Origin: an uncultured Mycoplasmatota bacterium
Lineage (GTDB): Bacteria; Bacillota_I; Bacilli_A; RF39; UBA660
Assembly (NCBI GenBank): GCA_946497925.1
Contig: CAMMMG010000001.1
Coordinates: forward strand, 6,192 to 70,191
Length of the DNA stretch: 64,000 nucleotides
Direction: 5' to 3'
Every line of letters begins with the position of its first letter. Within the stretch, counting starts at the first letter, position 1. A program made the position numbers and the translations under genes. The notes below the pieces were generated by a model. The model searched no databases, had not been told where the DNA came from, and was given only the letters and a program-made list of their open reading frames with translations. Of this stretch, positions 29,168 through 45,323 are shown one piece after another.

Positions 29168-29216
29168 TAGTAGCAAAAAAGGGCTTTTTACATATTTTAA
29201 TGTAGAGGTGAATATT

Positions 29217-29263: not shown

Positions 29264-29375
29264 AGGAATGGGAGTATCCCAAAAATAGGGAAATGACTAT
29301 GAATACTGATAAATACAAGTAAAAGAGATACTTTAGTGAGAAAAGTGTCTTTTTTAGTGATATAATAGCTTTTAG

Positions 29376-30038
29376 GTGAGAAGTATTGTGAAAGATGAAA
29401 ATAAATATAAAACAAAGAAAGAAATTGTTAAAGAATTTGATAATATATTTAATGCATATAAATATTATCTTTATAATGAGTATAAGATTACAGATACATT
29501 TAATTATAAAAATATTTTAATAACTAGCATTTTGAATAGAAGTTTGGCTTTAATAGAGGCTTATAAAAGACTATTGCCAAGTAATAATATAATGGTTTTA
29601 AATTCTTTGATTAGACTTCAATTAGATAATTGCATTTTTGTGTATGCAATGCATATGCTAGTTGATGCTGGTTATAATATAGATGATTTGGGCGAAAATA
29701 TTATACATAAAAATAGAAAATTAAGTTCTTATAAAATAGGAAAGCAAAAAATGACAGATTTTTATTTGATAAGCAAAATTGATGAAAAATATGGGAATAA
29801 AATAAAAGAAATGTATAATTTTTATTGTAGGTTTGTTCATTTTTCTGATAGTGCTTTGATTTCTTCTTCACAATTAGTTGGTAATAATGGCTTATCAATT
29901 GGCATTACTAAAGACTATACTAGGTTTAAAAAACATATTATTGTGAATGCCAATTCATTTGTTAATTTATGCAAATTTTTGTTGATTTTGATTAGAAAAG
30001 AGTGGAAAGATATACCGAATGGTAAAAATTTAGTTTAA
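29376..30038 (+). CDS. hypothetical protein (220 aa), first gene of element 1
   Basis: GTG start after an extended -10 element TGATATAAT. No recognisable motif. Confidence 0.5.
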   Translation: MRSIVKDENKYKTKKEIVKEFDNIFNAYKYYLYNEYKITDTFNYKNILITSILNRSLALIEAYKRLLPSNNIMVLNSLIRLQLDNCIFVYAMHMLVDAGYNIDDLGENIIHKNRKLSSYKIGKQKMTDFYLISKIDEKYGNKIKEMYNFYCRFVHFSDSALISSSQLVGNNGLSIGITKDYTRFKKHIIVNANSFVNLCKFLLILIRKEWKDIPNGKNLV

Positions 30039-30039
30039 T

Positions 30040-31365: not shown

Positions 31366-31421
31366 TAAAACTAGCATGCTTTTATAGATGCTAGTTATAG
31401 AAAGTAGGATGTATATTAATT

Positions 31422-31997
31422 TTATCTACTACAATTAATTGTCTGTTTTGGTAAACAGTGATATATAACAGATAGTTTTAGAACTATCCATATGAGTACT
31501 CTTATAATATCATTATCTTTTATATTACTACTAATGCAGTAGGATTTTAAAAATGTAATTTTTATAGGTAATTCTATATTTCTATCATTAACATTAGTTA
31601 CTTTTGAATATAGATTACTTGCGATATTTTCTGCTTCTTCAATAATAGAACAATAGTCTATGTTATCTTTTAAATCGTCTTTATGAAAATTGAAAAAGTC
31701 AATTATATCATTAACTTGTTTTGATATTTCTTTTAAAGAAATTTGAGATTTAAGACTTTTTATTTCTGTTAGATAGTAGTTAATTAGTTCTTCCAAAATT
31801 AACTCTTTATCTTTTTCTTTTAAATTGTTAAATTTAGTAGTAAGTAATTTATCTAAGTAATAATGATATTCAATATCTTTAATTTTTAAGATGGTATTAT
31901 TAAAGTTATTTGTAATAGTCGATATATAGTTATTTAACTCATTATTTTTTTGCATATCTTTCCTTTCTTTTCCTACTTTCTTGGCACTATTCGTCAT
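31422..31997 (-). CDS. hypothetical protein (191 aa)
   Basis: Track ORF with an upstream RBS. No recognisable motif. Confidence 0.45.
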   Translation of the reverse strand: MTNSAKKVGKERKDMQKNNELNNYISTITNNFNNTILKIKDIEYHYYLDKLLTTKFNNLKEKDKELILEELINYYLTEIKSLKSQISLKEISKQVNDIIDFFNFHKDDLKDNIDYCSIIEEAENIASNLYSKVTNVNDRNIELPIKITFLKSYCISSNIKDNDIIRVLIWIVLKLSVIYHCLPKQTINCSR

Positions 31998-32105
31998 TTC
32001 TCTCTTTTCTTTTTTATTAATATGTAATTATAACTTACTACATAGTTAGTATGGTTTAAAGAATATAAACTTATTACAATGTTAGTAAGTTAATAAAGAA
32101 AAGAT

Positions 32106-32378
32106 GTGATGGTTATTAAGAGTAAACATTATGAGAATCAAGCTCGTAAAATATTAGCGAATAATATAGTTTATTTTAGACTTAAAAAGAATTGGTCTCA
32201 AGAAGATTTTGCAGATGAACTTGGGACTACTCCTACTTATGTTTCTAATATAGAAAATGCTAAACGTAATACGAGAATAGATTATATTGGACATATTGCT
32301 GATACTCTTGGAGTATCTTTAGAACAATTATTTGTAGAAAGAACTCCAGTTGTTAATCATCGTATTCCAAGACGATAA
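32106..32378 (+). CDS. XRE-family HTH transcriptional regulator
   Basis: WSQEDFADELGTTPTYVSNIENAKRN is an HTH_3 signature. Confidence 0.7.
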   Translation: MMVIKSKHYENQARKILANNIVYFRLKKNWSQEDFADELGTTPTYVSNIENAKRNTRIDYIGHIADTLGVSLEQLFVERTPVVNHRIPRR

Positions 32379-32513
32379 GAATATGCTATATATTCTTTTT
32401 TTGTGCCACTTTAATTATATCATTAATTATTTACTTTTCAATACATTAATTGCGCGAATATGTGGCTATTTTAAAAACTCTAAAATGTCATAATTAAATG
32501 AGAGGGTGGTAAA

Positions 32514-32822
32514 ATGGCTATTCATAGTTTTCAAGAGTTACAAGATTTATTACAAAATGTAAATAAAGAAGAAATGTATGTTAATATTTGTAGAAATATT
32601 AAGAAGTTTCGTTTAGAAAAATATAATGAATTTAAGAAACAAAACTTAAATACATCTATTAATCCATATTCTACTGAGAATATTTCAGCACTTTTAGATT
32701 ATAATCATAATCATTATAAGAGATTTGAAAGTGAGAATGATAGTACTAAGATGATACCTTTAGAAAAGCTAGTTAAATTATCTATTATTTTAGATAAAAG
32801 ATTAGATGATTTTATTAGGTAA
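32514..32822 (+). CDS. hypothetical protein (102 aa)
   Basis: RBS GAGGGTGG upstream. No recognisable motif. Confidence 0.45.
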   Translation: MAIHSFQELQDLLQNVNKEEMYVNICRNIKKFRLEKYNEFKKQNLNTSINPYSTENISALLDYNHNHYKRFESENDSTKMIPLEKLVKLSIILDKRLDDFIR

Positions 32823-32968
32823 CTATTTGTTAAAAAAAGTTTTAAAAAAAGTTTTGACTTTCAAGGAAAAAAATGGTAAGATATGCCTCGAAAAGAGGAG
32901 TATCATTAACAAATTTAAAATTACTAAAATCTTCTTTTTAATATTTTAAATGAAAAGGAGGCAATAAT

Positions 32969-33613
32969 GTGTTTGAAACGGAGGTTAGATTTTATTTTAA
33001 TAAAAATGAATCTACAAAAATTATATCTTATTTAAAGGATATAGATTCGCTTTCTTTTGATGGTAGATTTTATGAGGTAACTCAGCAATTTGATCATCCA
33101 GAAATTTCTAAGTCTTTTTATTCATTGCAAGTTGACGGCAGATTTAGAATTAGATTGTCAAAATGTGAATCGTTTAGTAAGTTAAAAGTATCATGGAAAC
33201 AGCGTTTAAAAAAAGATAAAATTGATAATAAAATTCATAAGGAAAGGGAAGTTGAAATTAATTTAAATCCAAATGAGTATAATAATTTAATGTATATATT
33301 GAATGAAGTTATTGGTATGAGACTTGTAGAGAGTTATGAAAGATATAGGAGTGTTTTTTCTAATAAAGAAGTAGAAATAGTTGTGGATGAGTATCCATTT
33401 GCTACAGCTATTGAGATTGAAAGCAAAACTGATGACTCTATATCATTAAATTGGTGGATAGACAGGTTGGGTTTAAAATTAGAAGATGCTTATAGTTTAT
33501 CTTGGGATGATAAATATAATGAATTATGTAAAGAACAAGGGAAAACAGCAACTAAGTTCGTTACATTTGAATCTGATATGCCGGAGTTAAAAAATTGTAT
33601 TTTTGGAGAGTAA
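32969..33613 (+). CDS. CYTH-domain protein (triphosphate tunnel metalloenzyme / CyaB-like)
   Basis: The N-terminal MFETEVRFYF (ExExK/R pattern) opens a ~200-aa fold with alternating charged beta-strand residues, typical of CYTH. It is the first gene of a 7-gene operon with overlapping stops and starts. Confidence 0.55.
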   Translation: MFETEVRFYFNKNESTKIISYLKDIDSLSFDGRFYEVTQQFDHPEISKSFYSLQVDGRFRIRLSKCESFSKLKVSWKQRLKKDKIDNKIHKEREVEINLNPNEYNNLMYILNEVIGMRLVESYERYRSVFSNKEVEIVVDEYPFATAIEIESKTDDSISLNWWIDRLGLKLEDAYSLSWDDKYNELCKEQGKTATKFVTFESDMPELKNCIFGE

Positions 33614-34484
33614 AATGGAAAGCATAAAGAAAATTGAAAATGGTAATCTTAATGATGTATATAAATTAGTTATAAATAATAAAAAGTATATTTTAAGAAT
33701 GACAGAATTTAATAATGATTGTGAGATAAATACATTGCTAATTTTAAAAAAATATAATTTGAACGTGCCAAATCTGTTAGCTCATTTTAGTGTTTATAAT
33801 AAAAATGTAATGTTATTAGATTATATTGAGGGAAGTAATCCTTTGGAAATTGATATTAAATTTATTACTGAACTTTTAAAACAGTTAAAAAAACTTCATA
33901 ATATTCCATATGAAGATTTGGAAGAAAAATCAATAAATACAATAGAAAATTTTGAAAGATTGAGTAAATATTATGTTGTAAGTAAAAAATCAAATTTTTT
34001 AAAGCAAAAAATTCATTTAATTAATTCGATTTTGGAAGATGTTAAAGATATACCTTTTGATAAAATGCCAAAATGTATAGTGCATTCTGACATAAAAAAA
34101 GAGAATGTACTAGTAAATAATAATACTGTTTATATAATTGATTTTGGAAATAGTTATATAGGAAATAGGCTAATAGATTTAGTTAGAATAATTATGTGGT
34201 TTTTTTTGAAAAACAATGATTTTAATATTGAAGAAATAGAAAACTGTTTTAAAGTTTATTTTGAAAATAATCATCTTATTGATTTAGAATATAATAGTCT
34301 TGGTAAAATAATAAAATTTTGTGTTATTTATAATTTAATTAAAGATGTTTATTTGTTTGAAAAAGGATTCTTATCTGAAAATTATGTTGTTAAAAATGAT
34401 ACAAAATGGTTAAATGTATTGGAAAACGAACAATTATTAGAGAAAGTAAAGGAGGCTTTAAATAATGCTAGTAGATATTCATAA
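33603..34484 (+). CDS. aminoglycoside phosphotransferase (APH)/choline kinase-like small-molecule kinase
   Basis: Catalytic loop VHSDIKKENVLV (HxDxxxxN) and IIDFGNS (a DFG-equivalent metal-binding motif). The N-terminal lobe is nucleotide-binding. Confidence 0.7.
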   Translation: MESKMESIKKIENGNLNDVYKLVINNKKYILRMTEFNNDCEINTLLILKKYNLNVPNLLAHFSVYNKNVMLLDYIEGSNPLEIDIKFITELLKQLKKLHNIPYEDLEEKSINTIENFERLSKYYVVSKKSNFLKQKIHLINSILEDVKDIPFDKMPKCIVHSDIKKENVLVNNNTVYIIDFGNSYIGNRLIDLVRIIMWFFLKNNDFNIEEIENCFKVYFENNHLIDLEYNSLGKIIKFCVIYNLIKDVYLFEKGFLSENYVVKNDTKWLNVLENEQLLEKVKEALNNASRYS

Positions 34485-35256
34485 AAATAAAGATTTAAGG
34501 AATATAGAGGTTAATAATATAGGAATTTGTGATTATAAATTGCCAATAATATTTAAAAATAAGAACAATATTTTTCCTACTATTGCAACTATTACTTCTA
34601 CAGTAGTTTTAGATAGGAACTTAAAAGGTGCTCACTTGAGTAGAATTTCTGAAGTCATTAATGATTCATTAATAAACAAAAATATTTCATTGGGTGATAT
34701 TAATGATATAACTAAAGAAGTTGCAGAAAGATCAGAAACTAAAGGTGCTAATTTAATATTATCATTCGATTTAATTAACAAAAGATTAACACCTATATCT
34801 AAAAAGGATTCTTATTTATCTTCTAAAATTACAATAATTAGTGATATTATTGATAAAAGTGTTAGTAATAAATTGATTGTAGAAACTGTTGGTACAATGC
34901 TTTGCCCATGTTCAAAAGCAATTTCTAAGTATGGTGCACATAATCAAATATGTAATTTAAAAGTTTCGTTAACAGGTAATATTGAAAGTATAGATGTTGA
35001 AAAAATTATTGATATTATGGAACATCAATTTAGTTCACCTGTTTATAGTACTGTTAAAAGAGAAGATGAGCAATACATTACTGAAAAGGCTTATGAAAAT
35101 CCTAAGTTTTCAGAAGACTTAATTAGAGATACTATAATAGCTATTCATAATTATTATTCTGTTGGAGATATAAGGGTAGAATTAGTAAACAATGAATCAA
35201 TTCATCAACATAATGTTTATTCAATGGGAGAGCTAAATGCAGATCTTAACTCATAA
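34465..35256 (+). CDS. folE2: GTP cyclohydrolase I type 2 (FolE2/MptA family)
   Basis: LKGAHLSRISEV (KGtHMSRF-like) and MLCPCSKAISKYGAHNQICNLKV (CPCS...GAHNQRS-like) are the two FolE2 signature blocks. Confidence 0.65.
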   Translation: MLVDIHKNKDLRNIEVNNIGICDYKLPIIFKNKNNIFPTIATITSTVVLDRNLKGAHLSRISEVINDSLINKNISLGDINDITKEVAERSETKGANLILSFDLINKRLTPISKKDSYLSSKITIISDIIDKSVSNKLIVETVGTMLCPCSKAISKYGAHNQICNLKVSLTGNIESIDVEKIIDIMEHQFSSPVYSTVKREDEQYITEKAYENPKFSEDLIRDTIIAIHNYYSVGDIRVELVNNESIHQHNVYSMGELNADLNS

Positions 35257-36085
35257 AGAATTGTATGACAGATATTTAATCAATGTTGGTGATGACTCTA
35301 AAAAGGAAATTAAATCTATATTAACAGCTATGGAAAAACATGGCTATTCTAGTTTAGTAAAACAAAAAATTAACATGAATGAAGAAAAGTTTTATTATTT
35401 ATATTCTTTGTTAATAAAATTAAAAGAAATATTTGATACAAGATATAACGATAGAAATGATTTAGAAATCTTTTTTGATTATGTATTACAAAGTATTGAT
35501 GGGATTCCAATTAACTTTTATGCTATTTTTTGTCCTGGTTATAATGATGATGGATACAAAGATAGGTTAGGTAAAACTACTACTATTAAAATACAAAAAC
35601 TTTTTCAAATGAAACAATTACTAGATAAGGAGAATATTTTACATAATATTCATTGTTTATATGCAGATATTTTTTTAGAGAATTGTGATGAACTTAAAAA
35701 TCCAAATTGGGAAAAGGAATTAGAGGTTAATAAAAATCTATTTAAGGAATATGCCATTAAATATTTGGAATGTGCAGATATTGATTTTTTATCAAGTTAT
35801 TTTCCTGATAGTAAATATCAGAGAGGATTTGTTGATTCTAGTATTATTAATGGTAATAATTATGAGTCATTTAGAAAATATAATAATAATTTTTATATGA
35901 AAATGGGCTGGGATGATGCTAAAGCAAAAGAACGTAATGATAAGTTATATACAATTTATAATATAATTGCTGAATATATTATCAATACAAAATCAAATGG
36001 TATTTATTTACCAATGGAGAATATGTATGCACGAACTAAAGTGTTTACTAAGAAAAAAGTAGGTTCAATGTATTTTAAATTGTAG
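35237..36085 (+). CDS. hypothetical protein (282 aa) in the cargo operon
   Basis: Translationally coupled to its neighbours by a 20-nt overlap. No recognisable motif. Confidence 0.5.
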   Translation: MQILTHKELYDRYLINVGDDSKKEIKSILTAMEKHGYSSLVKQKINMNEEKFYYLYSLLIKLKEIFDTRYNDRNDLEIFFDYVLQSIDGIPINFYAIFCPGYNDDGYKDRLGKTTTIKIQKLFQMKQLLDKENILHNIHCLYADIFLENCDELKNPNWEKELEVNKNLFKEYAIKYLECADIDFLSSYFPDSKYQRGFVDSSIINGNNYESFRKYNNNFYMKMGWDDAKAKERNDKLYTIYNIIAEYIINTKSNGIYLPMENMYARTKVFTKKKVGSMYFKL

Positions 36086-36097
36086 GGGGTAGTAAAT

Positions 36098-38110
36098 ATG
36101 AATTATAAAGAAAAAGGTAATCTGTTTTGTAAAGAAATAAATCAATTATTAGCAAATAAAAACGAATATTATGCTTTGGTTACTGGTGGTGGATTTGCTT
36201 ATGATTCTGTAAAGTATTCGGATACTATACAAGGTGATTATGATTTTATGATAGTATATAAAGATGTTGAGCAATTAGATTCTTTAATAGAGGAATTAGA
36301 AAAAATTCCATTTGATTTTGAAAAGAAATATTTAGTTTCTGATTTACATTTATTAAAAAGTAAAGTAATAGATATTATAAGATTATGTGGTAAATATCGT
36401 GGCACCAAGAGTACTATTAACTTAGTAAATATAGAGTTAATTAAAAGAATAGCAAATTTGGAAACAAGAATCCCTTTAAAGAAAATTGCCCATAATAGAA
36501 ATACTGGTTTGTTTTTTGCATATGGTTCTGATAATAGCAGAATAATTGTAAACTTTTTATCGCCATCATTTGTTAGTGGTGATGGCGAAGATCACTATAT
36601 TCATTTAGATTTCTCTAATATTATTGTAGATAATAACATTTATTTTGGTATATTAGCAGATGCTATTTTAAAAGGTTTTAATAGTAATTATGATAATATA
36701 GGTTTTAAAGAAGTGCGTCAAAAGATGATAAAAAATATTAATAACTTTTTTAAAAATAATAAAATCGATAATAGTAATTATCTAAACTTGTATGCTAACA
36801 ATATATATTTTCCAGAAAATTTAAAAAGACAATTACTTGATGAATTCAATAAATATGGTAAAAATGTTTTTGAAGAAAAAAATACTACATCTAATACAAA
36901 ATATCCAATTATTTTTGCTGTTGATAATCCAATTAATAGAAAAATGAATCCATTTAATTTTATAAATAATAAAAGTTATAGATGTTCTTTTGATGATTAT
37001 ATTAATGAAATGCAAAAAAATGAATATGATAGACAATATTTGCTAGACGCATTAGCTAAATTGTTTGGATATGTTGCTTTTTCGAATAGTAAAATAGAAG
37101 ATGATAGTTATATAGAAAATATCATATCTAAATTTAGTGTATATGGTAATAACGATTTGTATTTTGAAGGAATTGAAAAATATTCTGTTAATACTATTTT
37201 TGGTTCATTTATTAATGATTTAAAAGTAAATAGATTTAAATATAACCCTATTTTATATAAAAATTATTTGCTAATGTTGTTAAGTTTTTTGTCATTTTAT
37301 AATAATAAAAATATTTTTGATATGTCTTTAAAATATGAAGTTAATGTTCAAGAATTGGTTAAACCTGAATTAGATAATACTAAAATGAATAGTGAAGTAA
37401 TATTAAAGTTGTCTAATTTTGATGATATAGGTATGTATCATAATTATACATCAAAGGTTATGCCTGGATATACACAAACAGAATGTGATTTTTTAGAAAA
37501 AGTATTTATAGAAAAAAAAGAGCCTGTTTTAGATGTTATGTGTGGATATGGAAGAATAGCTAATGAATTAGTTAAAAGAAATTATAAAAATGTGTATGGC
37601 GTTGATTTTTCTGACTATTCTTTTTTGAATGTAGATAAGGATTTTATTTTTTCTAAAGATGATTTCTTTCATTATCGACCAGGTATATTATTTAAATATT
37701 TATATAGCTTATATAATTGTTATGAAAATAAAGAATATTTGAGAAAAGTAATTGCTAAAATGACAGAATTGTCTGCTGATAATGCTTTTGTTATTTTAGA
37801 TGTTTTTAACAAAGAATGGCGAGATAAAATAGATTCTGAATTTTATAAATTGCTTTTTGATAGTTCTCCTGTAAAATTAGAAATTAGTAGACATTATGAT
37901 GATGAAACTGGTATTGAAACAACTAAATATTTAAAAACAATGTCTGATGATGAACAAGAAGAATATAGTTTTTCTCAAAAGTTTTTTACACAGGCTGAGA
38001 TAGAGGAGTCTATAGATTATAAAAAATGGGATATAGATTTTTTAACATCTGATGTGGTTGGATCAAGAAATAATAATCAGAAAAGAATTTTGGTTTTAAA
38101 GAGGCGGTAA
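36098..38110 (+). CDS. fusion protein: N-terminal pol-beta-type nucleotidyltransferase domain plus C-terminal class I SAM-dependent methyltransferase domain
   Basis: The N-terminus VTGGGFAYDSVKYSDTIQGDYDFMIV fits hG[GS]...DhDh. The C-terminus LDVMCGYGRIANELVKRNYKNVYGVDFSD fits MTase motif I (hhDhGxGxG) plus an acidic post-I residue. Confidence 0.6.
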   Translation: MNYKEKGNLFCKEINQLLANKNEYYALVTGGGFAYDSVKYSDTIQGDYDFMIVYKDVEQLDSLIEELEKIPFDFEKKYLVSDLHLLKSKVIDIIRLCGKYRGTKSTINLVNIELIKRIANLETRIPLKKIAHNRNTGLFFAYGSDNSRIIVNFLSPSFVSGDGEDHYIHLDFSNIIVDNNIYFGILADAILKGFNSNYDNIGFKEVRQKMIKNINNFFKNNKIDNSNYLNLYANNIYFPENLKRQLLDEFNKYGKNVFEEKNTTSNTKYPIIFAVDNPINRKMNPFNFINNKSYRCSFDDYINEMQKNEYDRQYLLDALAKLFGYVAFSNSKIEDDSYIENIISKFSVYGNNDLYFEGIEKYSVNTIFGSFINDLKVNRFKYNPILYKNYLLMLLSFLSFYNNKNIFDMSLKYEVNVQELVKPELDNTKMNSEVILKLSNFDDIGMYHNYTSKVMPGYTQTECDFLEKVFIEKKEPVLDVMCGYGRIANELVKRNYKNVYGVDFSDYSFLNVDKDFIFSKDDFFHYRPGILFKYLYSLYNCYENKEYLRKVIAKMTELSADNAFVILDVFNKEWRDKIDSEFYKLLFDSSPVKLEISRHYDDETGIETTKYLKTMSDDEQEEYSFSQKFFTQAEIEESIDYKKWDIDFLTSDVVGSRNNNQKRILVLKRR

Positions 38111-38112
38111 AT

Positions 38113-38649
38113 ATGTCAATTATAGCAATTGAAGGAACTAACTGTAGTGGAAAATCAACATTGATAGATTATTTAGTTAAATATTATAATTTTAAAGCTT
38201 CAAAATCAGTACCTGAGTGGTTTAGACCATATATACCTTTTGCAAGAGAGTTACAACCTCAATTACAACGAAAAATATATGAGATAGGACATATTGCAGC
38301 GTACTATGATGCACTAAAAGAAAAAAGTTGTACTATTTTTGATCGTTGTTATTTTTCAACATATATTCGATTATCATATCAAGAAAGTAAAACTGTAAAT
38401 GAGTGTGTAGATCAAATTGCTTCTTTTCACTATAAACCTGATTTAATAATTATTCTAACTGTTCCTAAAGAAATTATAGAGCAAAGGTTGGTAGAAAGAA
38501 ATGAACAGTTTAATCAGGATTTTTTTGAATATGAAAATTCTGTTTATTTACAATTATCATTCAAATATGATAACATTATATTAGTTGATAATAGTAAAGA
38601 CATAAAATTTTGTACAAATGAAATATTGAGAAAAATAAAAAGGAGATAA
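38113..38649 (+). CDS. P-loop deoxynucleoside/thymidylate kinase-family kinase
   Basis: IAIEGTNCSGKSTL is the Walker A motif of dNK/TMPK. FDRCYFS is DRY/ERS-like. The LID region is also present. Confidence 0.55.
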   Translation: MSIIAIEGTNCSGKSTLIDYLVKYYNFKASKSVPEWFRPYIPFARELQPQLQRKIYEIGHIAAYYDALKEKSCTIFDRCYFSTYIRLSYQESKTVNECVDQIASFHYKPDLIIILTVPKEIIEQRLVERNEQFNQDFFEYENSVYLQLSFKYDNIILVDNSKDIKFCTNEILRKIKRR

Positions 38650-38652
38650 GTT

Positions 38653-39591
38653 ATGAATGATGTAAGAGAACAATTGAAATATGTAGTGGAGAATAGTGAT
38701 TATGTAAAAATTAATTATACTCAATTAGATAGTTTTATAAAGAGTTTAGGGAAGCCAAATTATCAACATTGGTATAATTTTACTTCTTTAAATTTAAACG
38801 AAAAGGAAAAAATTATTTTAGCTTTTATAATAGAAAGTTTAAATTTTTGTTTTTGGCAAAAGCCAAAATTTAAAATTGAATATAAAGGTAATATTATAAA
38901 AGGGTCTGAGGCTTTATTTTATTCAATTATAAGAGAAGTAGAATCTAATAAAGACTTTTTAGATATAGAATTTTTAAATAAATTAACAAAAGATGATTTT
39001 GAAAAAATATTTTATTCGCCTGATAGTAAAATACCTTTATTTGATTTAAGATATGATCTTTTTAAAGATACTGTTAAAACAATGTATAATAAAGGCCAGA
39101 GTTTTTTTGATGAATTGTTTAATAAGAAATCAGATGTTGATTTATTAAAGTATATTGTGTCAGAATTTAAGTATTTTGATGATAGTAGTATCTATAAAGG
39201 TAAAAGAATAGAGTTTAATAAACGTGCTACTTTACTTGTTAATGACTTATATTATATGTCATCTACAATACATAATAATTTAAAAAATGTTGATAATTTA
39301 ACAGGTTGTGCTGATTATGGTATACCAAGGACTTTAAGGACGTATGGGATTTTAGAATATAATGAGGAATTATCTAACATAATTGATAATGAGATAGAGT
39401 TAAAGCATGATAGTAATATGGAAATTGAAATTAGAGCTAATATGCTTTATGTATTAGAATTAATTAGAGAAAAATTAGAAAATGAAGGTATTAAAATTAA
39501 TTCTGTAGAATTAGATAATGTTATTTGGCAGATGGGAACGAAGAAGAAAAATGTAAATCCATATCATCATACAATTACAATATTTTATTAG
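38653..39591 (+). CDS. hypothetical protein (312 aa), last gene of the cargo operon
   Basis: Track ORF in the same operon. A hairpin terminator lies downstream at ~39740-39778. Confidence 0.5.
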   Translation: MNDVREQLKYVVENSDYVKINYTQLDSFIKSLGKPNYQHWYNFTSLNLNEKEKIILAFIIESLNFCFWQKPKFKIEYKGNIIKGSEALFYSIIREVESNKDFLDIEFLNKLTKDDFEKIFYSPDSKIPLFDLRYDLFKDTVKTMYNKGQSFFDELFNKKSDVDLLKYIVSEFKYFDDSSIYKGKRIEFNKRATLLVNDLYYMSSTIHNNLKNVDNLTGCADYGIPRTLRTYGILEYNEELSNIIDNEIELKHDSNMEIEIRANMLYVLELIREKLENEGIKINSVELDNVIWQMGTKKKNVNPYHHTITIFY

Positions 39592-39768
39592 ATTCTATTA
39601 TAAACTAACTTTTAGACAAGTTAGTAACCCACTACGATATTGGCAGAGCCAATAACGAATGTGGGCAAAGATAGTTTCCTTTTGAAACCCCAATTAGCGA
39701 CAAATTGTGAATCGTTACAATATAATATTGTTGCATAAAAATAGCCTTATTGCTAAAAAGCAAAAAGG

Positions 39769-40362
39769 CTATTTTTCTTTATCTGTAAATTTTCCTACAA
39801 GTGTATTTAATTTAGTATTGGTATTAATTTCCATTTTAGGAAATACACCTCTATCAAATTTAGGATATTTTGCTTTATCAAATTTTTCTAAGTTAGGTTT
39901 TATTGTTGTTAATATTTCATTTAGGCTTTCTAATATTTCATCATTAGAAATTCCTTTATTTTCTATTTTTCCTATTAAATCAGTTATTATTCCTTTACAA
40001 GCAAAGTCGTTTTTACGTCTTTGTTCTATATCATCTAAAACATCAAAATAAAACTTTTCATAAGATTTTATTTGTGCTTGGTAGTCAGCAGTAGAACGTC
40101 TATCACTAAAATCTTTTCCCCAATTTATTTCTACATCATTATAACTAGCTAATTTCATTAATTTTACTAAACTTAATCCTAATGTTTCAGAAATTCCTTT
40201 TAAATATAAGATGTTAGGTTTCTTTCTTTTCCCAGATTCAATACGTGATACTTCAGCACAGTCCATATTAGATTTACGAGCAAGTTCTCTTTGAGAAATA
40301 CCAACTTTTTCTCTAGCTTCACTTATATATTTACCTAGTTCAGTAGTGTTTTTCTTCGCCAT
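39769..40362 (-). CDS. XRE-family repressor-like HTH regulator (197 aa), divergent from the element's HTH/replication genes
   Basis: LGKYISEAREKVGISQRELARKSNMDCAEVSRIESGKR is an HTH_3 domain. The C-terminal domain resembles a phage repressor. Confidence 0.7.
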   Translation of the reverse strand: MAKKNTTELGKYISEAREKVGISQRELARKSNMDCAEVSRIESGKRKKPNILYLKGISETLGLSLVKLMKLASYNDVEINWGKDFSDRRSTADYQAQIKSYEKFYFDVLDDIEQRRKNDFACKGIITDLIGKIENKGISNDEILESLNEILTTIKPNLEKFDKAKYPKFDRGVFPKMEINTNTKLNTLVGKFTDKEK

Positions 40363-40440
40363 TAAATTACACCTCTTTTTCTTGATAAGAAAATTATAAC
40401 ATATAATGATGTAAAAATCAACAAAAAAGTAATTATGTTG

Positions 40441-40497
40441 TTGACAAACTCAATACTTAATGTTATAGTATTAGTAAATTGATGTAAAACTCATCAA
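40441..40497 (+). promoter_or_regulatory. sigma-A promoter plus palindromic operator
   Basis: TTGACA, a 17-nt spacer, then TATAGT. The perfect inverted repeat TTGATG-N7-CATCAA follows at 40479-40497, between the promoter and the RBS of the 40518 gene. Confidence 0.5.
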
Positions 40498-40517
40498 AGA
40501 AAGGAGGAAACATATGA

Positions 40518-40775
40518 ATGATTAAGAGTCAGCTTAGAGTAGTACAAGCGATTTGGAAGGATAAATCTATTCCAAAAGAAGCTAAGTACATTTATGCTTA
40601 TATTTATTCTAAAGGGTATAATAGATACTTTACAGATATAAATGTAGGCGAGATACAACAGACTGTTAGAATTACTAATAAGGGTTTGAGAAAAAATCTT
40701 GAAAAACTAGAACAGGGAAAATATCTAGTATATCAAGAGTATGATAACGGTATGTACACCGTAAAACTTAACTAA
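40518..40775 (+). CDS. small HTH-domain protein (85 aa)
   Basis: The pattern ...AKYIYAYIYSKG...INVGEIQQTVRITNKGLRKNLEKLEQGKYL is a winged-helix pattern shared with the 40901 and 43818 ORFs. Confidence 0.5.
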   Translation: MIKSQLRVVQAIWKDKSIPKEAKYIYAYIYSKGYNRYFTDINVGEIQQTVRITNKGLRKNLEKLEQGKYLVYQEYDNGMYTVKLN

Positions 40776-40900
40776 AGGGTCTAAAGACGTTAGTTAAGAG
40801 GTACAGTAAGATTAGAGGCTTATGTTAGTACCTTTTCTATAAGAGATATAGAATAAATAATAATGGTTAAAGAAAGTCCCTATATTAAGAAAGGGAAACT

Positions 40901-41386
40901 ATGCAATTAGATTGTACTTTTAGCATAACTCCAAGAATAGTATTAAGTGATAAGAACTTATCAAGTACAGAAAAATTACTTATGGGGCTTATCGTGTCAC
41001 TTGCCTTAAAAAATAACTATTGTTTTGCTAGTAATAAGTATTTTGCAGATAACCTAAATATATCAGTTAGAACAGTAACTCTTGCTTTATCTAAATTGAA
41101 ATTAGAGGAGTATATATTTGTTAGAACTGATAATGGAAGAAGAAAAATATATCTAAATAAGGAAAAGATACCAACAAAAACTTCTAATAGAGTAGCAGAA
41201 ACTTACGATGTATCTATAGAAAGTAATTGCTATCATAAAATAAATAATAATTATAAGAAAAATAATAATAAATATAAAAATAAAGAAATTATTCCTGTTT
41301 GGTTAGAACAGAAAGAAATGTGTAATAGTCTTAGTGCAACTAAAGAGGAAATAGAAGAAATGAATGAACTATTAAAAGATTTATAG
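40901..41386 (+). CDS. HTH-domain protein (161 aa) of ICE/IME type, paralog family of 43818
   Basis: LSSTEKLLMGLIVSLALKNNYCFASNKYFADNLNISVRTVTLALSKLKLEEYI is the same architecture as the 43818 ORF (LSLKAKGLLSIMLSLPDSWNYSTLGLASICIESRDTIRKILNELKANRYL). Confidence 0.55.
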   Translation: MQLDCTFSITPRIVLSDKNLSSTEKLLMGLIVSLALKNNYCFASNKYFADNLNISVRTVTLALSKLKLEEYIFVRTDNGRRKIYLNKEKIPTKTSNRVAETYDVSIESNCYHKINNNYKKNNNKYKNKEIIPVWLEQKEMCNSLSATKEEIEEMNELLKDL

Positions 41387-41448
41387 AAAGAGAGATGATT
41401 TAATGAGGAGGAATATTTTATAACTAATAATAAAAGGGGGTTAGATAA

Positions 41449-41592
41449 ATGGAGGTAAAATATAATATAAAATATAGGTTTAAATGTGATGCTAAAACGA
41501 ATGAAGAATTAAAAGATATATTTAATAAAAAATGGTTAAATATTATACTTATTTTAGAAAACAATAATACTTCTAGTTTAAATAGAGTTTAA
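41449..41592 (+). CDS. small ORF (47 aa) immediately upstream of the recombinase; candidate excisionase/RDF
   Basis: Strong RBS AAGGGGGT precedes the ATG. The product is MEVKYNIKYRFKCDAKTNEELKDIFNKKWLNIILILENNNTSSLNRV. It is not in the track because it is shorter than 60 aa. Confidence 0.3.
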   Translation: MEVKYNIKYRFKCDAKTNEELKDIFNKKWLNIILILENNNTSSLNRV

Positions 41593-41655
41593 AATGAGTT
41601 ATAATGTGTTTGTATTTAAAAGTGTTTGTAGTCATTCTTTAAAGAAATTGGAGGA

Positions 41656-43251: not shown

Positions 43252-43293
43252 AATAATATTTAATATTTGGGACTTTCTGCTTCCTTCACATGG

Positions 43294-45313: not shown

Positions 45314-45323
45314 GGTGAGATAG

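What the first reader, a model, noticed from the sequence alone, without database searches (positions are those of the whole stretch)
32969..39591. Element-1 cargo: tightly coupled 7-gene operon combining CYTH, APH-like kinase, FolE2 GTP cyclohydrolase I, NTase-MTase fusion and a dNK/TMPK-like kinase, a candidate nucleotide- or pterin-derived small-molecule pathway
Seven ORFs have overlapping or abutting boundaries (overlaps of 11, 20, 20, then gaps of 12, 2, 3 nt). Five have predicted nucleotide-handling chemistry. FolE2 opens the imidazole ring of GTP, the entry step to pterins and 7-deazapurines. CYTH is a triphosphate tunnel metalloenzyme. There are two different kinases. There is a minimal nucleotidyltransferase fused to a SAM MTase. 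Two proteins are unknown. I do not recognise this combination as folate, queuosine, a standard toxin-antitoxin, CBASS or a known DNA-hypermodification cluster. It is carried on a mobilisable element. It could make a modified nucleotide or pterin used for signalling, defence, nucleoside-antibiotic production or resistance, or DNA modification.
Basis: partly seen in the sequence, partly recalled or inferred. Interest (0 to 1): 0.65.

Follow-up and report, generated by a model that had tools for sequence, protein, structure and literature searches.

The report
Mobile operon tailoring a GTP derivative
A tightly packed seven-gene operon on a mobilisable element of an uncultured gut Firmicute, kept gene-for-gene in distant relatives, joins a GTP ring-opening enzyme to kinases, a triphosphatase, a methyltransferase fusion, a queuine-salvage-like glycosidase and two unannotated protein families. 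It most likely makes or processes an unknown GTP-derived small molecule and matches no described pathway.

Summary
All seven ORFs sit at the stated coordinates, are translationally coupled, and end at a strong hairpin terminator.

The gene order APH-kinase / FolE2 / g4 / g5 / TMPK-like kinase / (NUDIX) / Qng1-like recurs at 36-62% protein identity. It is seen in at least nine different chromosomal or mobile contexts of gut Bacilli and Clostridia, so it is a real functional unit.

- The last 'unknown' is a Qng1/DUF2419 homologue. It keeps the catalytic residues but has a remodelled 7-substituent pocket.
- The other 'unknown' (g4) has a class-I aaRS / isonitrile-synthase-like fold.
- The C-terminus of g5 is a small-molecule N-methyltransferase.
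- The 445-aa N-terminus of g5 is a very rare domain (41 representatives among 1.84 billion). It has only motif-level resemblance to Pol-beta nucleotidyltransferases.
- CYTH is optional.

Two more distant cassettes reuse the parts: FolE2-NDK-NTL-unk380-NUDIX and FolE2-CYTH-g4-like-ADK. The invariant core is therefore FolE2 + NTP phosphohydrolase + nucleotide kinase.

I found no match to known folate, queuosine, defence, phage or plasmid systems, no riboswitch, and no literature. Best reading (about 0.4): a horizontally mobile pathway that turns GTP into a tailored, phosphorylated and N-methylated pterin- or guanine-type metabolite. The product is unknown.

The parts
32969..33613 (+). g1: CYTH / triphosphate-tunnel metalloenzyme-like protein (214 aa). 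Optional member of the cassette.
   Evidence: Pfam PF01928 at 9e-6, 26.0 bits against a cut-off of 23.2. N-terminal E-T-E-V-R matches the ExExK-type motif. Homologous (BLASTP 9e-7) to the Pfam-annotated CYTH of the distant FolE2-CYTH-g4-like-ADK cassette in L033. Present only in the window clade, L012 and L009/L010.
33603..34484 (+). g2: APH-family small-molecule kinase (probable start ATG 33615).
   Evidence: Pfam APH 4e-19. The best NCBIfam similarities (homoserine kinase II, CotS, APH(3')) are all far below their cut-offs. The Brenner motif H161-x-D163-x4-N168 and D180-F-G are invariant in 7 orthologues. In distant relatives of g5 an APH domain is fused to the NTL domain.
34465..35256 (+). 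g3: GTP cyclohydrolase IB (FolE2).
   Evidence: Pfam GCHY-1 1e-63. NCBIfam FolE2 gives 188.9 bits, below its 215 equivalog cut-off. 3e-48 to N. gonorrhoeae FolE2 (3D2O), with CPCSK..GAHNQ, KR.DE.Y.TEKAYENPKF.ED and ESIH.H conserved. A FolE2 gene is present in every related cassette type.
35237..36085 (+). g4: unannotated family with a class-I aminoacyl-tRNA-synthetase-like (HUP Rossmann) fold.
   Evidence: No Pfam/NCBIfam/PADLOC/PHROG hit. Only 63 clusters in 5.8 billion proteins. AF2 pLDDT 91. Foldseek PDB best hits are the TyrRS catalytic domain, isonitrile synthases PIsnA/PvcA and CDPS, at E 4e-6 to 1e-3 and TM 0.45-0.51. Invariant motifs AIFCPGY..GYK, ADIFLEN, RNDKLYTIY, YLPME.MY.R. The remote homologue P0152 (hhalign 98.6%) lies in a FolE2-CYTH-g4-like-ADK operon.
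36098..37432 (+). g5 N-terminal 445 aa ('NTL' domain): rare domain with a Pol-beta-NTase-like motif followed by a helical region.
   Evidence: Invariant S37...D47-x-D49 and D92. The AF2 model is confident (pLDDT 91). No PDB sequence hit even at E=10. Only 41 hits among 1.84 billion representatives. hhalign to kanamycin NTase aligns exactly the GS..DxE motif, but E=0.4. One of 17 distant members gives a weak ANT(2'') Pfam hit. Stand-alone forms lie beside FolE2, NDK and NUDIX; other forms are fused to APH.
37433..38110 (+). g5 C-terminal domain: class-I SAM-dependent small-molecule N-methyltransferase.
   Evidence: Foldseek PDB top hits are CcbJ, CypM, TylM1/DesVI, CalS10, NmbA and glycine N-MTase (4e-10 to 1e-7, TMt 0.63-0.72). 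Motif I LDVMCGYGR and D503 are invariant. Homologous over 205 aa (5e-12) to the separate MTase gene in the distant cassette L020.
38113..38649 (+). g6: thymidylate-kinase-like P-loop nucleoside-monophosphate kinase.
   Evidence: Pfam Thymidylate_kin 1e-14 and dNK 1.5e-7. NCBIfam dTMP kinase gives 50.6 bits, below its 83 cut-off. 9e-11 to Aquifex TMPK 5XBH. Replaced by NDK or an ADK-like kinase in the distant cassettes.
38653..39591 (+). g7: Qng1/DUF2419-like nucleotide N-glycosidase with a diverged specificity pocket.
   Evidence: PF10343 3e-55. 1e-37 to S. thermophilus Qng1 structures. K199, D231, Y232, F75, N72, D298, W302 and the C-terminal Tyr are kept. Y93->S, W94->E/N, W299->N, K233->G and Q306->T. 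G84, S85 and G223 are invariant and the N at the W299 position is kept in 7 of 8 operon orthologues. Absent from the two most divergent operons, L011 and L018.
39737..39776 (.). Bidirectional intrinsic-terminator-like hairpin closing the operon and the convergent HTH gene.
   Evidence: MFE -19.3 kcal/mol, z = -5.64, 0 of 200 shuffles as stable, followed by UUUUUCUUU.
32585..39760 (+). Extent of the transferable operon block shared with Clostridium sp. CAG:417.
   Evidence: blastn: 95.8% identity over 7178 nt to L012, which has unrelated housekeeping flanks (rpoD, trmK, ppdK / MazG-like, MatE).
29153..43251 (+). Carrier: mobilisable integrative element. It holds Mob_Pre relaxase 30040-31365, HTH 32106-32378, convergent HTH repressor 39769-40362 (-), HTH_36 40901-41386 and large serine recombinase 41656-43251.
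   Evidence: Pfam. Near-identical copies in six metagenome contigs. The left boundary is estimated from where L003 stops matching (window 29153) and the right boundary from the recombinase stop, which abuts the Amidase_3 fragment. The ends were not mapped precisely.

Best explanation
The operon is a self-contained, horizontally mobile pathway that commits guanine nucleotide to a specialised GTP-derived small molecule. It is not housekeeping folate or queuosine synthesis.

Proposed flow, with each step marked as shown or inferred:
1. FolE2 (g3) opens the imidazole ring of GTP to give 7,8-dihydroneopterin triphosphate. This is shown only at the level of conserved catalytic motifs.
2. An NTP phosphohydrolase resets the phosphate tail, or removes released tri/pyrophosphate. 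CYTH (g1) does this here and NUDIX does it in sister operons. Inferred.
3. An APH-type kinase (g2) and a TMPK-like monophosphate kinase (g6) re-phosphorylate a hydroxyl and a monophosphate of the intermediate. Inferred.
4. The rare NTL domain of g5 couples a phospho-intermediate to a nucleotide or phospho-group. Inferred from its NTase-like motif, its fusion to APH elsewhere and its constant pairing with NDK/TMPK.
5. The fused methyltransferase of g5 N-methylates an amine. The fold is shown; the substrate is inferred.
6. g4, an aaRS/isonitrile-synthase-like enzyme, performs an ATP- or amine-dependent tailoring step. Inferred.
7. The Qng1 paralogue (g7) cleaves the N-glycosidic bond of a guanine-type 5'-nucleotide whose 7/8 region differs from queuosine. 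This either releases a free base as product or recycles a side product. Catalytic competence is shown by residues; the substrate is inferred.

The end product is unknown. My working guess is a phosphorylated or nucleotidylated, N-methylated neopterin-type compound.
For: - Tight coupling, a single terminator and a strong Shine-Dalgarno.
- Collinear conservation of g2-g7 at 36-62% identity in at least nine unrelated contexts.
- FolE2 motifs are intact.
- APH catalytic motifs are intact.
- g5's C-terminus has the fold of small-molecule N-MTases and an intact SAM motif.
- Rosetta-stone links: NTL is fused to MTase here and to APH in P0123/P0125/P0127/P0128. The MTase is a separate but homologous gene in L020.
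- Distant cassettes reuse the parts: FolE2-NDK-NTL-unk380-NUDIX (L020, L031), NDK-NTL (L021, L029, L023), and FolE2-CYTH-g4-like-ADK (L033/L034). The recurring core is FolE2 + NTP phosphohydrolase + nucleotide kinase, and both unknown families are tied to FolE2.
- g7 keeps the Qng1 catalytic and purine-face residues but has a family-specific altered pocket exactly where Qng1 contacts the 7-substituent.
- No QueD/E/C, TGT or FolB/K/P in any cassette.
- No hit in PADLOC, phages, plasmids or viral contigs.
Against: - No product, substrate or phenotype is known; every step after FolE2 is inference.
- A pterin product has no N-glycosidic bond, so g7 fits only as an accessory. It is indeed absent from L011, L018 and the distant cassettes.
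- Dedicated NMP/NDP kinases would make more sense if the intermediate remained a true nucleotide.
- The NTase assignment of NTL is not statistically supported.
- g4's fold match is moderate (TM about 0.5).
- g3 scores below NCBIfam's FolE2 equivalog cut-off.
- Several loci lie next to restriction, TA or recombinase genes, which would also suit a defence role.
Confidence: 0.4

Rival explanations
1. A 7-deazaguanine/queuosine-related cassette. FolE2 supplies the first step towards preQ0-type bases, with the remaining steps done by host QueD/E/C or by the unknown proteins. Alternatively the kinases convert salvaged queuosine-type nucleosides to 5'-nucleotides, and the Qng1-like enzyme then hydrolyses these to a queuine-like base for tRNA or export. 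The N-MTase would methylate the aminomethyl or secondary amine of the side chain.
For: - FolE2 and Qng1 are the only two proteins with precise family assignments, and both belong to 7-deazaguanine metabolism.
- Qng1's true substrate is the 5'-monophosphate made by an unidentified kinase (PMC9881137), and two kinases sit in the operon.
- g7 is the best-conserved protein of the operon (55-62% identity).
- The hosts are gut bacteria, where Q salvage is common. The MTase fold is that of amine N-methyltransferases.
Against: - No QueD/E/C/F, TGT, QueA or Q transporter in any of the cassettes or in the 64-kb window.
- No preQ1 riboswitch.
- The cyclopentenediol pocket of Qng1 (Y93, W94, W299) is replaced by S, E/N, N.
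- g7 is missing from L011, L018 and from both distant cassette types, whereas FolE2 is always kept.
- Salvage would not need FolE2.
Confidence: 0.2
2. An anti-phage or anti-MGE defence (or counter-defence) module. On infection it either drains GTP through FolE2, or makes a non-canonical guanine-derived nucleotide that blocks replication or transcription. The kinases and the NTP pyrophosphatase would set the analogue's phosphorylation state, as in prokaryotic viperin operons or the T4 dNTP-modification logic.
For: - It is cargo of a Mob_Pre/serine-recombinase element inserted at a hotspot. That hotspot also holds an Eco57I/ResIII element in the window and a YobI-ATPase element in L001.
- A recombinase lies directly downstream in L013 and L025.
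- An MmeI-like R-M system follows the distant cassette in L020. MazEF + patatin and an MvaI/BcnI endonuclease lie near L007 and L009.
- The distribution is patchy and HGT-like.
- 'NTP pyrophosphatase + NMP kinase (+NDK)' is the classic signature of modified-nucleotide pools.
Against: - No significant PADLOC hit for any protein apart from generic kinase/P-loop similarity.
- No sensor or effector domain (nuclease, TIR, SIR2, pore).
- Many copies lie among housekeeping genes: rpoD/ppdK, ProRS, YidC, FtsW, the ribosomal-protein operon.
- Absent from phages and viral contigs.
- The defence-island association rests on a handful of loci and was not tested statistically.
Confidence: 0.13
3. A non-orthologous replacement of the early folate/pterin-cofactor steps. 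FolE2 acts as FolE, CYTH/NUDIX as FolQ/NudB, g4 as a FolB-like step, and APH + TMPK-like kinases do a two-step substitute for the FolK pyrophosphokinase. The cassette would give reduced-genome gut bacteria a pterin-pyrophosphate supply, or give antifolate tolerance when acquired on a mobile element.
For: - FolE2 + NUDIX is the known FolE/FolQ pairing (established folate biochemistry).
- P-loop NMP-kinase folds can phosphorylate non-nucleotide monophosphates (my own knowledge: animal phosphomevalonate kinase).
- The minimal distant cassette FolE2-CYTH-g4-like-ADK has the right number of steps.
- The hosts are small-genome gut Bacilli.
Against: - No FolP/FolC/FolA nearby in any locus.
- The NTL-MTase fusion and Qng1 have no role in folate synthesis.
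- N-methylation is not part of the folate pterin moiety.
- g4's fold is unrelated to known aldolases or HPPKs.
- No THF riboswitch.
Confidence: 0.12
4. A cap-like or nucleotide-conjugate modification of a macromolecule. A TTM triphosphatase (CYTH), an NTase-like enzyme and a methyltransferase would build a methylated guanine-derived 5' adduct, and NUDIX would remove it.
For: The domain triad TTM + NTase-like + MTase, with NUDIX in sister operons, parallels eukaryotic and viral capping/decapping logic. The best matches to g5 in the viral structure library are giant-virus capping enzymes and cap N7-MTases (1e-6 to 1e-5).
Against: - Those viral matches have TM 0.2-0.26 and rmsd up to 24 A, and reflect the generic MTase fold.
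- PDB matches to small-molecule N-MTases are much better.
- NTL lacks the KxDG motif of capping guanylyltransferases.
- CYTH is optional in the operon.
- The idea explains neither FolE2, g4 nor the kinases.
Confidence: 0.04
5. Unrelated housekeeping genes that happen to be adjacent.
For: None beyond the fact that FolE2 and TMPK-like genes can be housekeeping.
Against: The same order recurs at 36-62% identity in many unrelated flanks. The genes are translationally coupled. The block transfers as a 7.2-kb unit. Domain fusions link the parts.
Confidence: 0.01

Closest known systems
preQ0/queuosine pathway and Qng1 (DUF2419) queuine salvage
   Same: It starts from GTP cyclohydrolase I (FolE2 type). 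It contains a Qng1 homologue with the catalytic Asp/Lys, the ribose- and purine-face residues and the C-terminal Tyr. Kinases that could make the 5'-monophosphate substrate are present.
   Different: No QueD, QueE, QueC, QueF, TGT, QueA/G/H or Q-precursor transporter, and no preQ1 riboswitch. The Qng1 pocket for the cyclopentenediol side chain is replaced. Qng1 is dispensable in divergent operons whereas FolE2 is not.
Early folate pathway operons (FolE/FolE2 - FolQ/NudB - FolB - FolK), e.g. the Lactococcus folKE-folP-folQ-folC cluster
   Same: FolE2 together with an NTP pyrophosphohydrolase (NUDIX in sister operons, CYTH here), with phosphoryl-transfer steps after it.
   Different: No FolB, FolK, FolP, FolC or FolA. 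It has extra NTL-MTase, APH, aaRS-like and Qng1-like proteins that have no place in folate synthesis.
Kinase + nucleotidyltransferase activation modules (LicA/LicC/LicD, AmgK/MurU, HldE) and TylM1/DesVI-type N-methylation of nucleotide-linked amines
   Same: An APH-fold kinase is genetically and physically (by fusion) coupled to an NTase-like domain. The fused MTase has the fold of enzymes that N-methylate small amines, several of them on dTDP-sugars.
   Different: The NTL domain has no significant similarity to any characterised NTase. No glycosyltransferase, sugar-modifying enzyme or acceptor pathway is present. The module is always tied to FolE2.
Modified-nucleotide pool logic (phage T4 dCTPase / dCMP hydroxymethylase / dNMP kinase; prokaryotic viperin operons with nucleotide kinases)
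   Same: Co-occurrence of an NTP phosphohydrolase, an NMP or NDP kinase and base-modifying enzymes in one operon. HGT-prone, sometimes near defence genes.
   Different: No radical-SAM viperin and no ThyA-like hydroxymethylase. Not found in any phage collection. The base-modifying enzyme is a GTP cyclohydrolase, which destroys the purine rather than decorating it.
Isonitrile synthases PvcA/IsnA (DIT1_PvcA), cyclodipeptide synthases and the TyrRS catalytic domain (for g4)
   Same: Overall class-I aaRS-like Rossmann fold (Foldseek E 4e-6 to 1e-3).
   Different: TM only 0.45-0.51 and 10-13% identity. No Pfam DIT1_PvcA or tRNA-synt hit. No HIGH/KMSKS motifs; it has its own invariant CPGY..GYK, LEN, RND and ME..Y.R motifs.
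Tn4451/Tn4453-type mobilisable transposons of clostridia (large serine recombinase TnpX + Mob/Pre TnpZ) - the carrier, from my own knowledge of that family
   Same: A ~14-kb element with a Mob_Pre relaxase at one side, a DUF4368-bearing large serine recombinase at the other and cargo between them. It is inserted in a chromosomal gene.
   Different: The cargo is this operon instead of an antibiotic-resistance gene. The ends and excision were not examined.

Membership tests
GTP cyclohydrolase IB (FolE2) | Match to the PF02649/FolE2 profile over the full length | tested here: met
   Pfam 1.2e-63, residues 2-253 on profile positions 1-260. 3e-48 to 3D2O.
GTP cyclohydrolase IB (FolE2) | NCBIfam equivalog score cut-off (215 bits) | tested here: not met
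   188.9 bits: a divergent subfamily, or simply a low-GC lineage.
GTP cyclohydrolase IB (FolE2) | Conserved metal/catalytic motifs (CPCSK..GAHNQ, E in TEKAYENPKF, ESIHxH) | tested here: met
   Residue-by-residue alignment to N. gonorrhoeae FolE2. The assignment of roles to these motifs is from my knowledge of the family.
GTP cyclohydrolase IB (FolE2) | Converts GTP to H2NTP | not testable with these tools
   Needs an enzyme assay.
Qng1 / DUF2419 queuosine-5'-monophosphate N-glycosidase | PF10343 profile match | tested here: met
   2.7e-55. 1.3e-37 to 7UK3/7U07.
Qng1 / DUF2419 queuosine-5'-monophosphate N-glycosidase | Catalytic D231 and K199, Y232, F75, D298/W302, free C-terminal Tyr | tested here: met
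   The alignment mapped onto residues listed in PMC9881137. All are conserved and invariant in 8 operon orthologues.
Qng1 / DUF2419 queuosine-5'-monophosphate N-glycosidase | Hydrophobic pocket for the cyclopentenediol side chain (Y93, W94, W299) and phosphate contacts K233, Q306 | tested here: not met
   Y93->S85, W94->E/N, W299->N (S in one of the eight orthologues), K233->G223, Q306->T/K. W48/P46/H53 could not be aligned.
Qng1 / DUF2419 queuosine-5'-monophosphate N-glycosidase | Releases queuine from Q-5'-MP and not from GMP | not testable with these tools
   Needs an enzyme assay.
Canonical preQ0/queuosine biosynthesis or salvage locus | QueD, QueE, QueC (or TGT, QueA, Q transporters) in or near the cluster | tested here: not met
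   None in the operon, in the flanks of the related loci examined, or among the 35 window ORFs scanned against Pfam. The rest of the host genome is unseen.
Folate biosynthesis operon | FolB, FolK, FolP (and FolC/FolA) clustered with FolE | tested here: not met
   Absent from all cassettes and the flanks examined.
CYTH / triphosphate tunnel metalloenzymes (g1) | PF01928 match above the gathering score and an N-terminal ExExK motif | tested here: met
   26.0 vs 23.2 bits, a marginal pass. The motif is E3-x-E5-x-R7, with Arg in place of Lys. The homologue in L033 carries a confident CYTH hit.
Pol-beta-superfamily nucleotidyltransferase (g5 N-terminus) | hG[GS]-x9-13-Dh[DE]h motif plus a third acidic residue | tested here: met
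   S37, D47-Y-D49 and D92 are invariant in 24 sequences, and the corresponding S...D-x-D is invariant in 17 distant ones.
Pol-beta-superfamily nucleotidyltransferase (g5 N-terminus) | Statistically significant sequence or structure match to a known NTase | tested here: inconclusive
Small-molecule SAM-dependent N-methyltransferases (CcbJ/TylM1/DesVI/CypM type) | Class-I MTase fold with SAM motif I, closest to amine N-MTases | tested here: met
   Foldseek PDB 4e-10, TMt 0.63-0.72. DVMCGYGR and D503 are invariant. The atom methylated is not testable here.
APH / eukaryotic-like small-molecule kinases (g2) | PF01636 match plus HxDxxxxN and DFG motifs | tested here: met
   4.3e-19. H161, D163, N168 and D180-F-G are invariant. 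No NCBIfam equivalog cut-off is reached, so the substrate is unknown.
Thymidylate kinase (g6) | Equivalog-level match to dTMP kinase | tested here: not met
   Pfam family match 1.3e-14, but NCBIfam TIGR00041 gives 50.6 bits against a cut-off of 83. It is a TMPK-like NMP kinase of unknown substrate.
Isonitrile synthase (DIT1_PvcA) / class-I aaRS / CDPS (g4) | Family profile match or signature motifs (HIGH, KMSKS) | tested here: not met
   No Pfam hit. The profile finds no PDB sequence. The motifs are absent on inspection of the alignment.
Isonitrile synthase (DIT1_PvcA) / class-I aaRS / CDPS (g4) | Shared fold | tested here: inconclusive
   Foldseek probability 1.0 but TM 0.45-0.51 and rmsd 5-6 A: the same broad HUP Rossmann architecture, not demonstrably the same family.
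Known anti-phage defence systems (PADLOC 2.0) | Significant match of any component to a defence-system model | tested here: not met
   Only generic kinase-loop hits (PD-T4-6, 1e-5) and P-loop hits (PDC-M51B 5e-9, VakA 2e-8). Nothing for g1, g3, g4, g5 or g7.
Phage 7-deazaguanine / DNA hypermodification clusters | DpdA/TGT-like transglycosylase, QueCDE; presence in phage genomes | tested here: not met
   No such genes. No homologues of g4, g5 or g7 in INPHARED phages, and none of g5 in IMG/VR.
mRNA-capping triad | Covalent guanylyltransferase (KxDG) plus cap N7-MTase | tested here: not met
   The NTL motif is of Pol-beta type, not KxDG. Viral capping-enzyme matches have TM about 0.2.
Tn4451-like mobilisable transposon (carrier element) | Large serine recombinase plus Mob_Pre relaxase flanking cargo | tested here: met
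   PF00239+PF07508+PF13408+DUF4368 at 41656-43251 and PF01076 at 30040-31365. The ends and circular intermediate were not tested.

The most novel reading that the evidence does not exclude
The window operon and its two distant cousins may define a previously undescribed branch of GTP metabolism. The cousins are FolE2-NDK-NTL-unk380-NUDIX and FolE2-CYTH-g4-like-ADK. In this reading FolE2-type ring opening feeds new enzyme families (g4, NTL, unk380). These families would rebuild or decorate the 7/8 region of guanine at the nucleotide level, independently of QueD/E/C. The result would be a new queuine-like base, pterin-nucleotide conjugate or antimetabolite that gut bacteria exchange on mobile elements. 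The Qng1 paralogue would be the dedicated base-releasing enzyme.
Probability: 0.15. Interest if true: 0.85.

Novelty: new variant of a known kind. Interest (0 to 1): 0.62.

Why it matters
GTP cyclohydrolase I is the gateway to folate, biopterin, queuosine/archaeosine and the 7-deazapurine antibiotics. A fourth, uncharacterised set of downstream enzymes attached to it would add a branch to textbook pterin/purine metabolism.

Two protein families here have no annotation anywhere and a sharply restricted distribution: g4 (63 clusters) and the NTL domain (41 representatives in 1.84 billion proteins). Yet they give confident structure models and clear genomic partners, which makes them tractable targets for function discovery.

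The Qng1 paralogue shows that the queuine-salvage fold has been re-tooled for another 7/8-modified guanine nucleotide. The unidentified kinase that feeds Qng1 in eukaryotes may have a bacterial counterpart here.

The cassette moves on mobilisable elements among common animal and human gut Firmicutes. Whatever it makes is therefore a transferable trait of the microbiome: a micronutrient, an antimetabolite or a defence.

Tried and rejected
- Megablast of the operon against PLSDB plasmids and INPHARED phages: no match.
- tblastn of g5 against plasmids, and of g4, g5 and g7 against phages: no match.
- IMG/VR scan with the g5 alignment: none.
- PADLOC and PHROGs: nothing specific.
- Rfam at gathering threshold on the window and four loci, and at E<=1 on three operon leaders: no riboswitch.
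- The promoter/terminator consensus scan was uninformative in 24% GC DNA. The terminator was found by eye and folding.
- Profile searches of the NTL domain and of g4 against PDB sequences: nothing.
- hhalign of NTL against kanamycin NTase: motif in register but not significant.
- Pfam at E<=10 over 17 distant NTL proteins: no recurrent family.
- hhalign of the unk380 partner against g4, APH and g5: unrelated. L020's 384-aa protein against g4: unrelated.
The 6-sequence version mostly returned more window-type operons.
- Literature searches found no description: DUF2419+FolE2; Qng1+kinase+cluster; GTP cyclohydrolase+defence; CYTH+dihydroneopterin triphosphate; Q_salvage; GTP cyclohydrolase+CYTH+NTase+MTase.
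- Zallot 2014 (PMC4136680) is not held.
- Rejected ideas: phage DNA hypermodification (no transglycosylase, not in phages); a classical aminoglycoside/lincosamide resistance trio APH+ANT+MTase (it is always linked to FolE2 and g4 and is chromosomally conserved); chance adjacency.

Full report
**1. The observation**

The mechanical ORF list reproduces all seven ORFs at exactly the reported coordinates on the + strand. Junctions are -11, -20, -20, +12, +2 and +3 nt.

Reading the DNA refines two starts. Gene 1 begins at GTG 32969, 6 nt after an AAAGGAGG Shine-Dalgarno. Gene 2 most likely begins at ATG 33615, behind GGAGAG and 1 nt after the gene-1 stop, rather than at TTG 33603. Independent gene calls on six other contigs give that 289-aa product.

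The operon ends at a 40-nt hairpin at 39737-39776. Its energy is -19.3 kcal/mol, z = -5.6, and it is followed by a U-run. It also serves the convergent HTH gene.

**2. What the seven proteins are**

Family searches:
- g1: CYTH, marginally above Pfam's cut-off, with an N-terminal ExExR motif.
- g2: an APH-fold kinase with intact HxDxxxxN and DFG motifs. It matches no substrate-specific model.
- g3: FolE2. It scores 1e-63 in Pfam and 3e-48 to the N. gonorrhoeae enzyme, with all signature motifs conserved. It lies slightly under NCBIfam's equivalog cut-off.
- g6: a thymidylate-kinase-like NMP kinase (9e-11 to Aquifex TMPK), below the dTMP-kinase equivalog cut-off.
- g7: Q_salvage/DUF2419 at 3e-55.

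I mapped g7 onto the S. thermophilus Qng1 structures, using the residues described in PMC9881137.
- Kept: catalytic D231 and K199; ribose residues F75 and Y232; N72; the purine-face pair D298/W302; the catalytically required free C-terminal Tyr.
- Changed: three of the pocket residues that hold queuosine's cyclopentenediol side chain (Y93, W94, W299; W48/P46/H53 could not be aligned) are S, E/N and N. Two phosphate contacts also differ (K233->G, Q306->T).
- S85 and G223 are invariant and the other replacements are largely conserved in eight operon orthologues.

So g7 is a catalytically competent Qng1 paralogue. It is built for a guanine-like 5'-nucleotide with a different 7/8 region.

**3. The two proteins without annotation**

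g5 (670 aa) gave an AlphaFold model with pLDDT 91.
- Its C-terminal ~225 residues match small-molecule amine N-methyltransferases: CcbJ, CypM, TylM1/DesVI, CalS10, NmbA and glycine N-MTase, at 4e-10. The SAM motif is intact.
- Its N-terminal 445 residues ('NTL') carry an invariant S37...D47-x-D49...D92 pattern, like the Pol-beta NTase signature.
- Beyond the motif there is no significant match: no Pfam hit, nothing in PDB sequences, and hhalign E=0.4 to kanamycin NTase although the motif aligns in register.
- In 1.84 billion representative proteins the domain has only 41 hits.

g4 (282 aa; pLDDT 91) has a class-I aaRS-like Rossmann fold.
- Its best matches are the TyrRS catalytic domains, the isonitrile synthases PIsnA/PvcA and cyclodipeptide synthases (E 4e-6 to 1e-3, TM 0.45-0.51).
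- It has none of their sequence motifs. It has its own invariant CPGY..GYK, LEN, RND and ME..Y.R motifs.
- The family has 63 clusters in 5.8 billion proteins, all unnamed.

**4. Co-conservation**

Homologues of g5 down to 36% identity were located on contigs and genomes. A tblastn/phmmer census shows the order g2-g3-g4-g5-g6 in every locus long enough to tell.
- g7 follows in all but the two most divergent loci (L011, L018).
- A NUDIX gene is inserted before g7, or ends the operon, in L009/L010/L011.
- CYTH is present only in the window clade, L012 and L009/L010.

The flanks differ in each lineage: SRP54/spore-coat genes, FTHFS/HemN, U32 peptidase/sigma factor, ProRS, YidC, FtsW and a radical-SAM gene. 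The cassette is thus an autonomous unit.

The carriers are Clostridium sp. CAG:417, bacterium D16-56 and uncultured gut Bacilli/Erysipelotrichaceae-type MAGs from human, rabbit, rumen and chicken samples.

**5. Mobility**

In the window the operon lies inside a ~14-kb element.
- Mob_Pre relaxase at 30040-31365.
- Two HTH regulators and an HTH_36 protein.
- A DUF4368-type large serine recombinase at 41656-43251, which abuts a split Amidase_3-LysM gene.

The element recurs at 99-100% identity in six metagenomes.

Only the block 32585-39760 is shared (95.8%) with Clostridium sp. CAG:417. There it sits among rpoD, trmK and ppdK on one side and a MazG-like gene and MatE on the other. The element therefore captured a pre-existing operon.

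Versions at 48-50% identity in L013 and L025 also have a serine recombinase directly downstream. No homologue was found in plasmid, phage or viral-contig collections.

**6. Distant cousins constrain function**

Stand-alone NTL proteins lie in a second cassette type.
- L020: Ldh_2 - PEP_mutase-like - MTase - FolE2 - NDK - NTL - unk384 - NUDIX.
- L031: FolE2 - NDK-like - NTL - unk378 - NUDIX.
- L021 and L029: NDK directly upstream of NTL.
- L023: NDK divergent from an NTL-APH fusion.
- L032: MTase - SDR - NTL - unk378 - RpiB.

The L020 MTase is homologous to g5's MTase domain over 205 residues (5e-12). Four distant NTL proteins carry a C-terminal APH domain.

A remote g4 homologue (P0152, hhalign 98.6%) sits in a four-gene operon: FolE2 - CYTH - g4-like - adenylate-kinase-like. 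That CYTH is homologous to g1 and that FolE2 to g3 (9e-41).

Both unknown families are therefore tied to FolE2. The recurring core across the three cassette types is FolE2 + an NTP phosphohydrolase (CYTH or NUDIX) + a nucleotide kinase (TMPK-like, ADK-like or NDK). The window operon looks like a composite of a 'g4 module' and an 'NTL-MTase-APH module', with a Qng1 paralogue appended.

**7. Mechanism**

Shown:
- The operon is a conserved unit.
- FolE2, APH, MTase and Qng1-like catalytic motifs are intact.
- Fusion and neighbourhood links join the kinase, NTL, MTase and FolE2.

Inferred:
- FolE2 converts GTP to dihydroneopterin triphosphate.
- CYTH/NUDIX trims the triphosphate, or hydrolyses released PPPi/PPi.
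- APH and the NMP-type kinase re-phosphorylate.
- NTL transfers a nucleotidyl or phospho group onto the kinase product.
- The fused MTase N-methylates an amine.
- g4 performs an ATP- or amine-dependent tailoring step.
- g7 cleaves a 7/8-modified guanine-type nucleotide, as a release or recycling step.

I put about 0.4 on this 'specialised GTP-derived metabolite' reading. My weak preference is for a neopterin-phosphate-type product, because FolE2 looks fully canonical and g7 is dispensable.

The main tension is that dedicated NMP/NDP kinases, three kinds of NTP pyrophosphatase and an N-glycosidase would fit better if the intermediate stayed a true nucleotide.

**8. Rivals**

- (a) Queuosine/7-deazaguanine salvage or synthesis (0.2). 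It is favoured by the FolE2 + Qng1 pairing and the kinases. It is weakened by the absence of every other Q gene, the remodelled Qng1 pocket, the absence of a riboswitch and the dispensability of g7.
- (b) Defence or antiviral nucleotide (0.13). It is favoured by mobile-element cargo status and by neighbouring R-M/TA genes in some loci. It is weakened by empty PADLOC results, the lack of sensor or effector domains, and many housekeeping contexts.
- (c) Non-orthologous early folate steps or antifolate tolerance (0.12). The four-gene cousin fits numerically, but NTL-MTase and Qng1 have no role and FolP is never nearby.
- (d) Cap-like macromolecule modification (0.04). The TTM + NTase-like + MTase + NUDIX parallel is suggestive. 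The best viral-library matches to g5 are capping enzymes, but these reflect the generic MTase fold.
- (e) Chance adjacency is refuted.

**9. Novelty and verdict**

No paper in the searchable library describes this combination. Every public name for these proteins is 'hypothetical', 'unknown' or a generic methyltransferase label on fragments.

The parts belong to known superfamilies, so I class it as a new variant of a known kind: a nucleotide/pterin tailoring operon. It does contain two or three unannotated enzyme families and a re-tooled Qng1.

Interest 0.62. It is a real, rare, mobile and experimentally tractable pathway hanging off a central metabolic gateway, but its product and phenotype are still unknown.

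Noticed in passing
window 43241-57692: A chromosomal Amidase_3-LysM cell-wall hydrolase gene is split: the N-terminal fragment is at 43241-43561 and the C-terminal part, with six LysM repeats, at 56424-57692. Between them lies a second element carrying a 1363-aa ResIII + Eco57I-type restriction-modification fusion (45324-49415), an 834-aa AAA/SMC-like ATPase (50433-52937) and its own large serine recombinase (54575-56200). Two serine-recombinase elements sit in tandem at one hotspot.
   Followed up: partly
L001 13140-18008 (matches the window up to 43519): In another metagenome the same element-1 is followed, at the same amidase site, by different cargo: a 1173-aa YobI-ATPase protein instead of the window's R-M element. 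The site appears to be a swap-in hotspot for defence-like cargo.
   Followed up: no
L020 3964-14579; L031 403-4782; L032 141-5396: A distant cassette type, FolE2-NDK-NTL-unk~380-NUDIX. In L020 it is preceded by Ldh_2, a PEP_mutase-family protein and an MTase, and followed by HTH + an MmeI-like R-M enzyme. In L032 it is combined with an SDR and RpiB. The ~380-aa partner (motifs DHVYGSPPIRL.DSH, HFGNDFGF) has no family and is unrelated to g4, APH or g5.
   Followed up: partly
L033 8606-11567 and L034 1495-4456: A minimal four-gene operon, FolE2-CYTH-g4-like-adenylate-kinase-like, lies between greA and the L11-L1-L10-L12/NusG ribosomal cluster of an unidentified environmental bacterium. Its FolE2 has CPASK instead of CPCSK.
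   Followed up: partly
L011 26-1847 and L018 12576-13298: The two most divergent window-type operons, which both lack the Qng1 gene, lie next to Peptidase_U32 genes. In L011 there is also a Methyltransf_3 gene, reminiscent of the yrrM/yrrN/yrrO tRNA-U34 hydroxylation/methylation genes. This may be lineage synteny or a hint of a tRNA link.
   Followed up: no
L012 14387-14686; L017 8854-9558: Further phosphate-handling neighbours: a MazG-like NTP pyrophosphohydrolase ~900 nt downstream of the operon in Clostridium sp. CAG:417, and a ComB-type 2-phosphosulfolactate phosphatase immediately downstream in L017.
   Followed up: no
window 20751-25551: A run of a DUF1186 + SEC-C-motif protein (532 aa) and two PRiA4_ORF3-like proteins upstream of a cation-efflux gene. 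These domains are often plasmid- or MGE-associated, so this may be the remnant of another element.
   Followed up: no
window 39707-40051 (+): A 114-aa GTG ORF lies entirely antisense to the HTH repressor gene (39769-40362, -). Its sequence is low-complexity and hydrophobic, so it is almost certainly not a gene.
   Followed up: no
window 1-64000: Very low GC (22-34%). GC skew is strongly positive from ~3 kb to ~61 kb, where almost all genes are on the + strand. The sign flips at both ends, where genes are on the - strand (tRNA at 2719-2789 -, PBP1 at 61115-63982 -).
   Followed up: no
window 32106-32822: An 89/90-aa HTH_3/HTH_19 protein and a 102-aa ORF with no family precede the operon inside the element. 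They are absent from the chromosomal homologues apart from a partial trace in L012. They probably regulate the element or the cargo, together with the convergent 197-aa HTH repressor downstream.
   Followed up: partly
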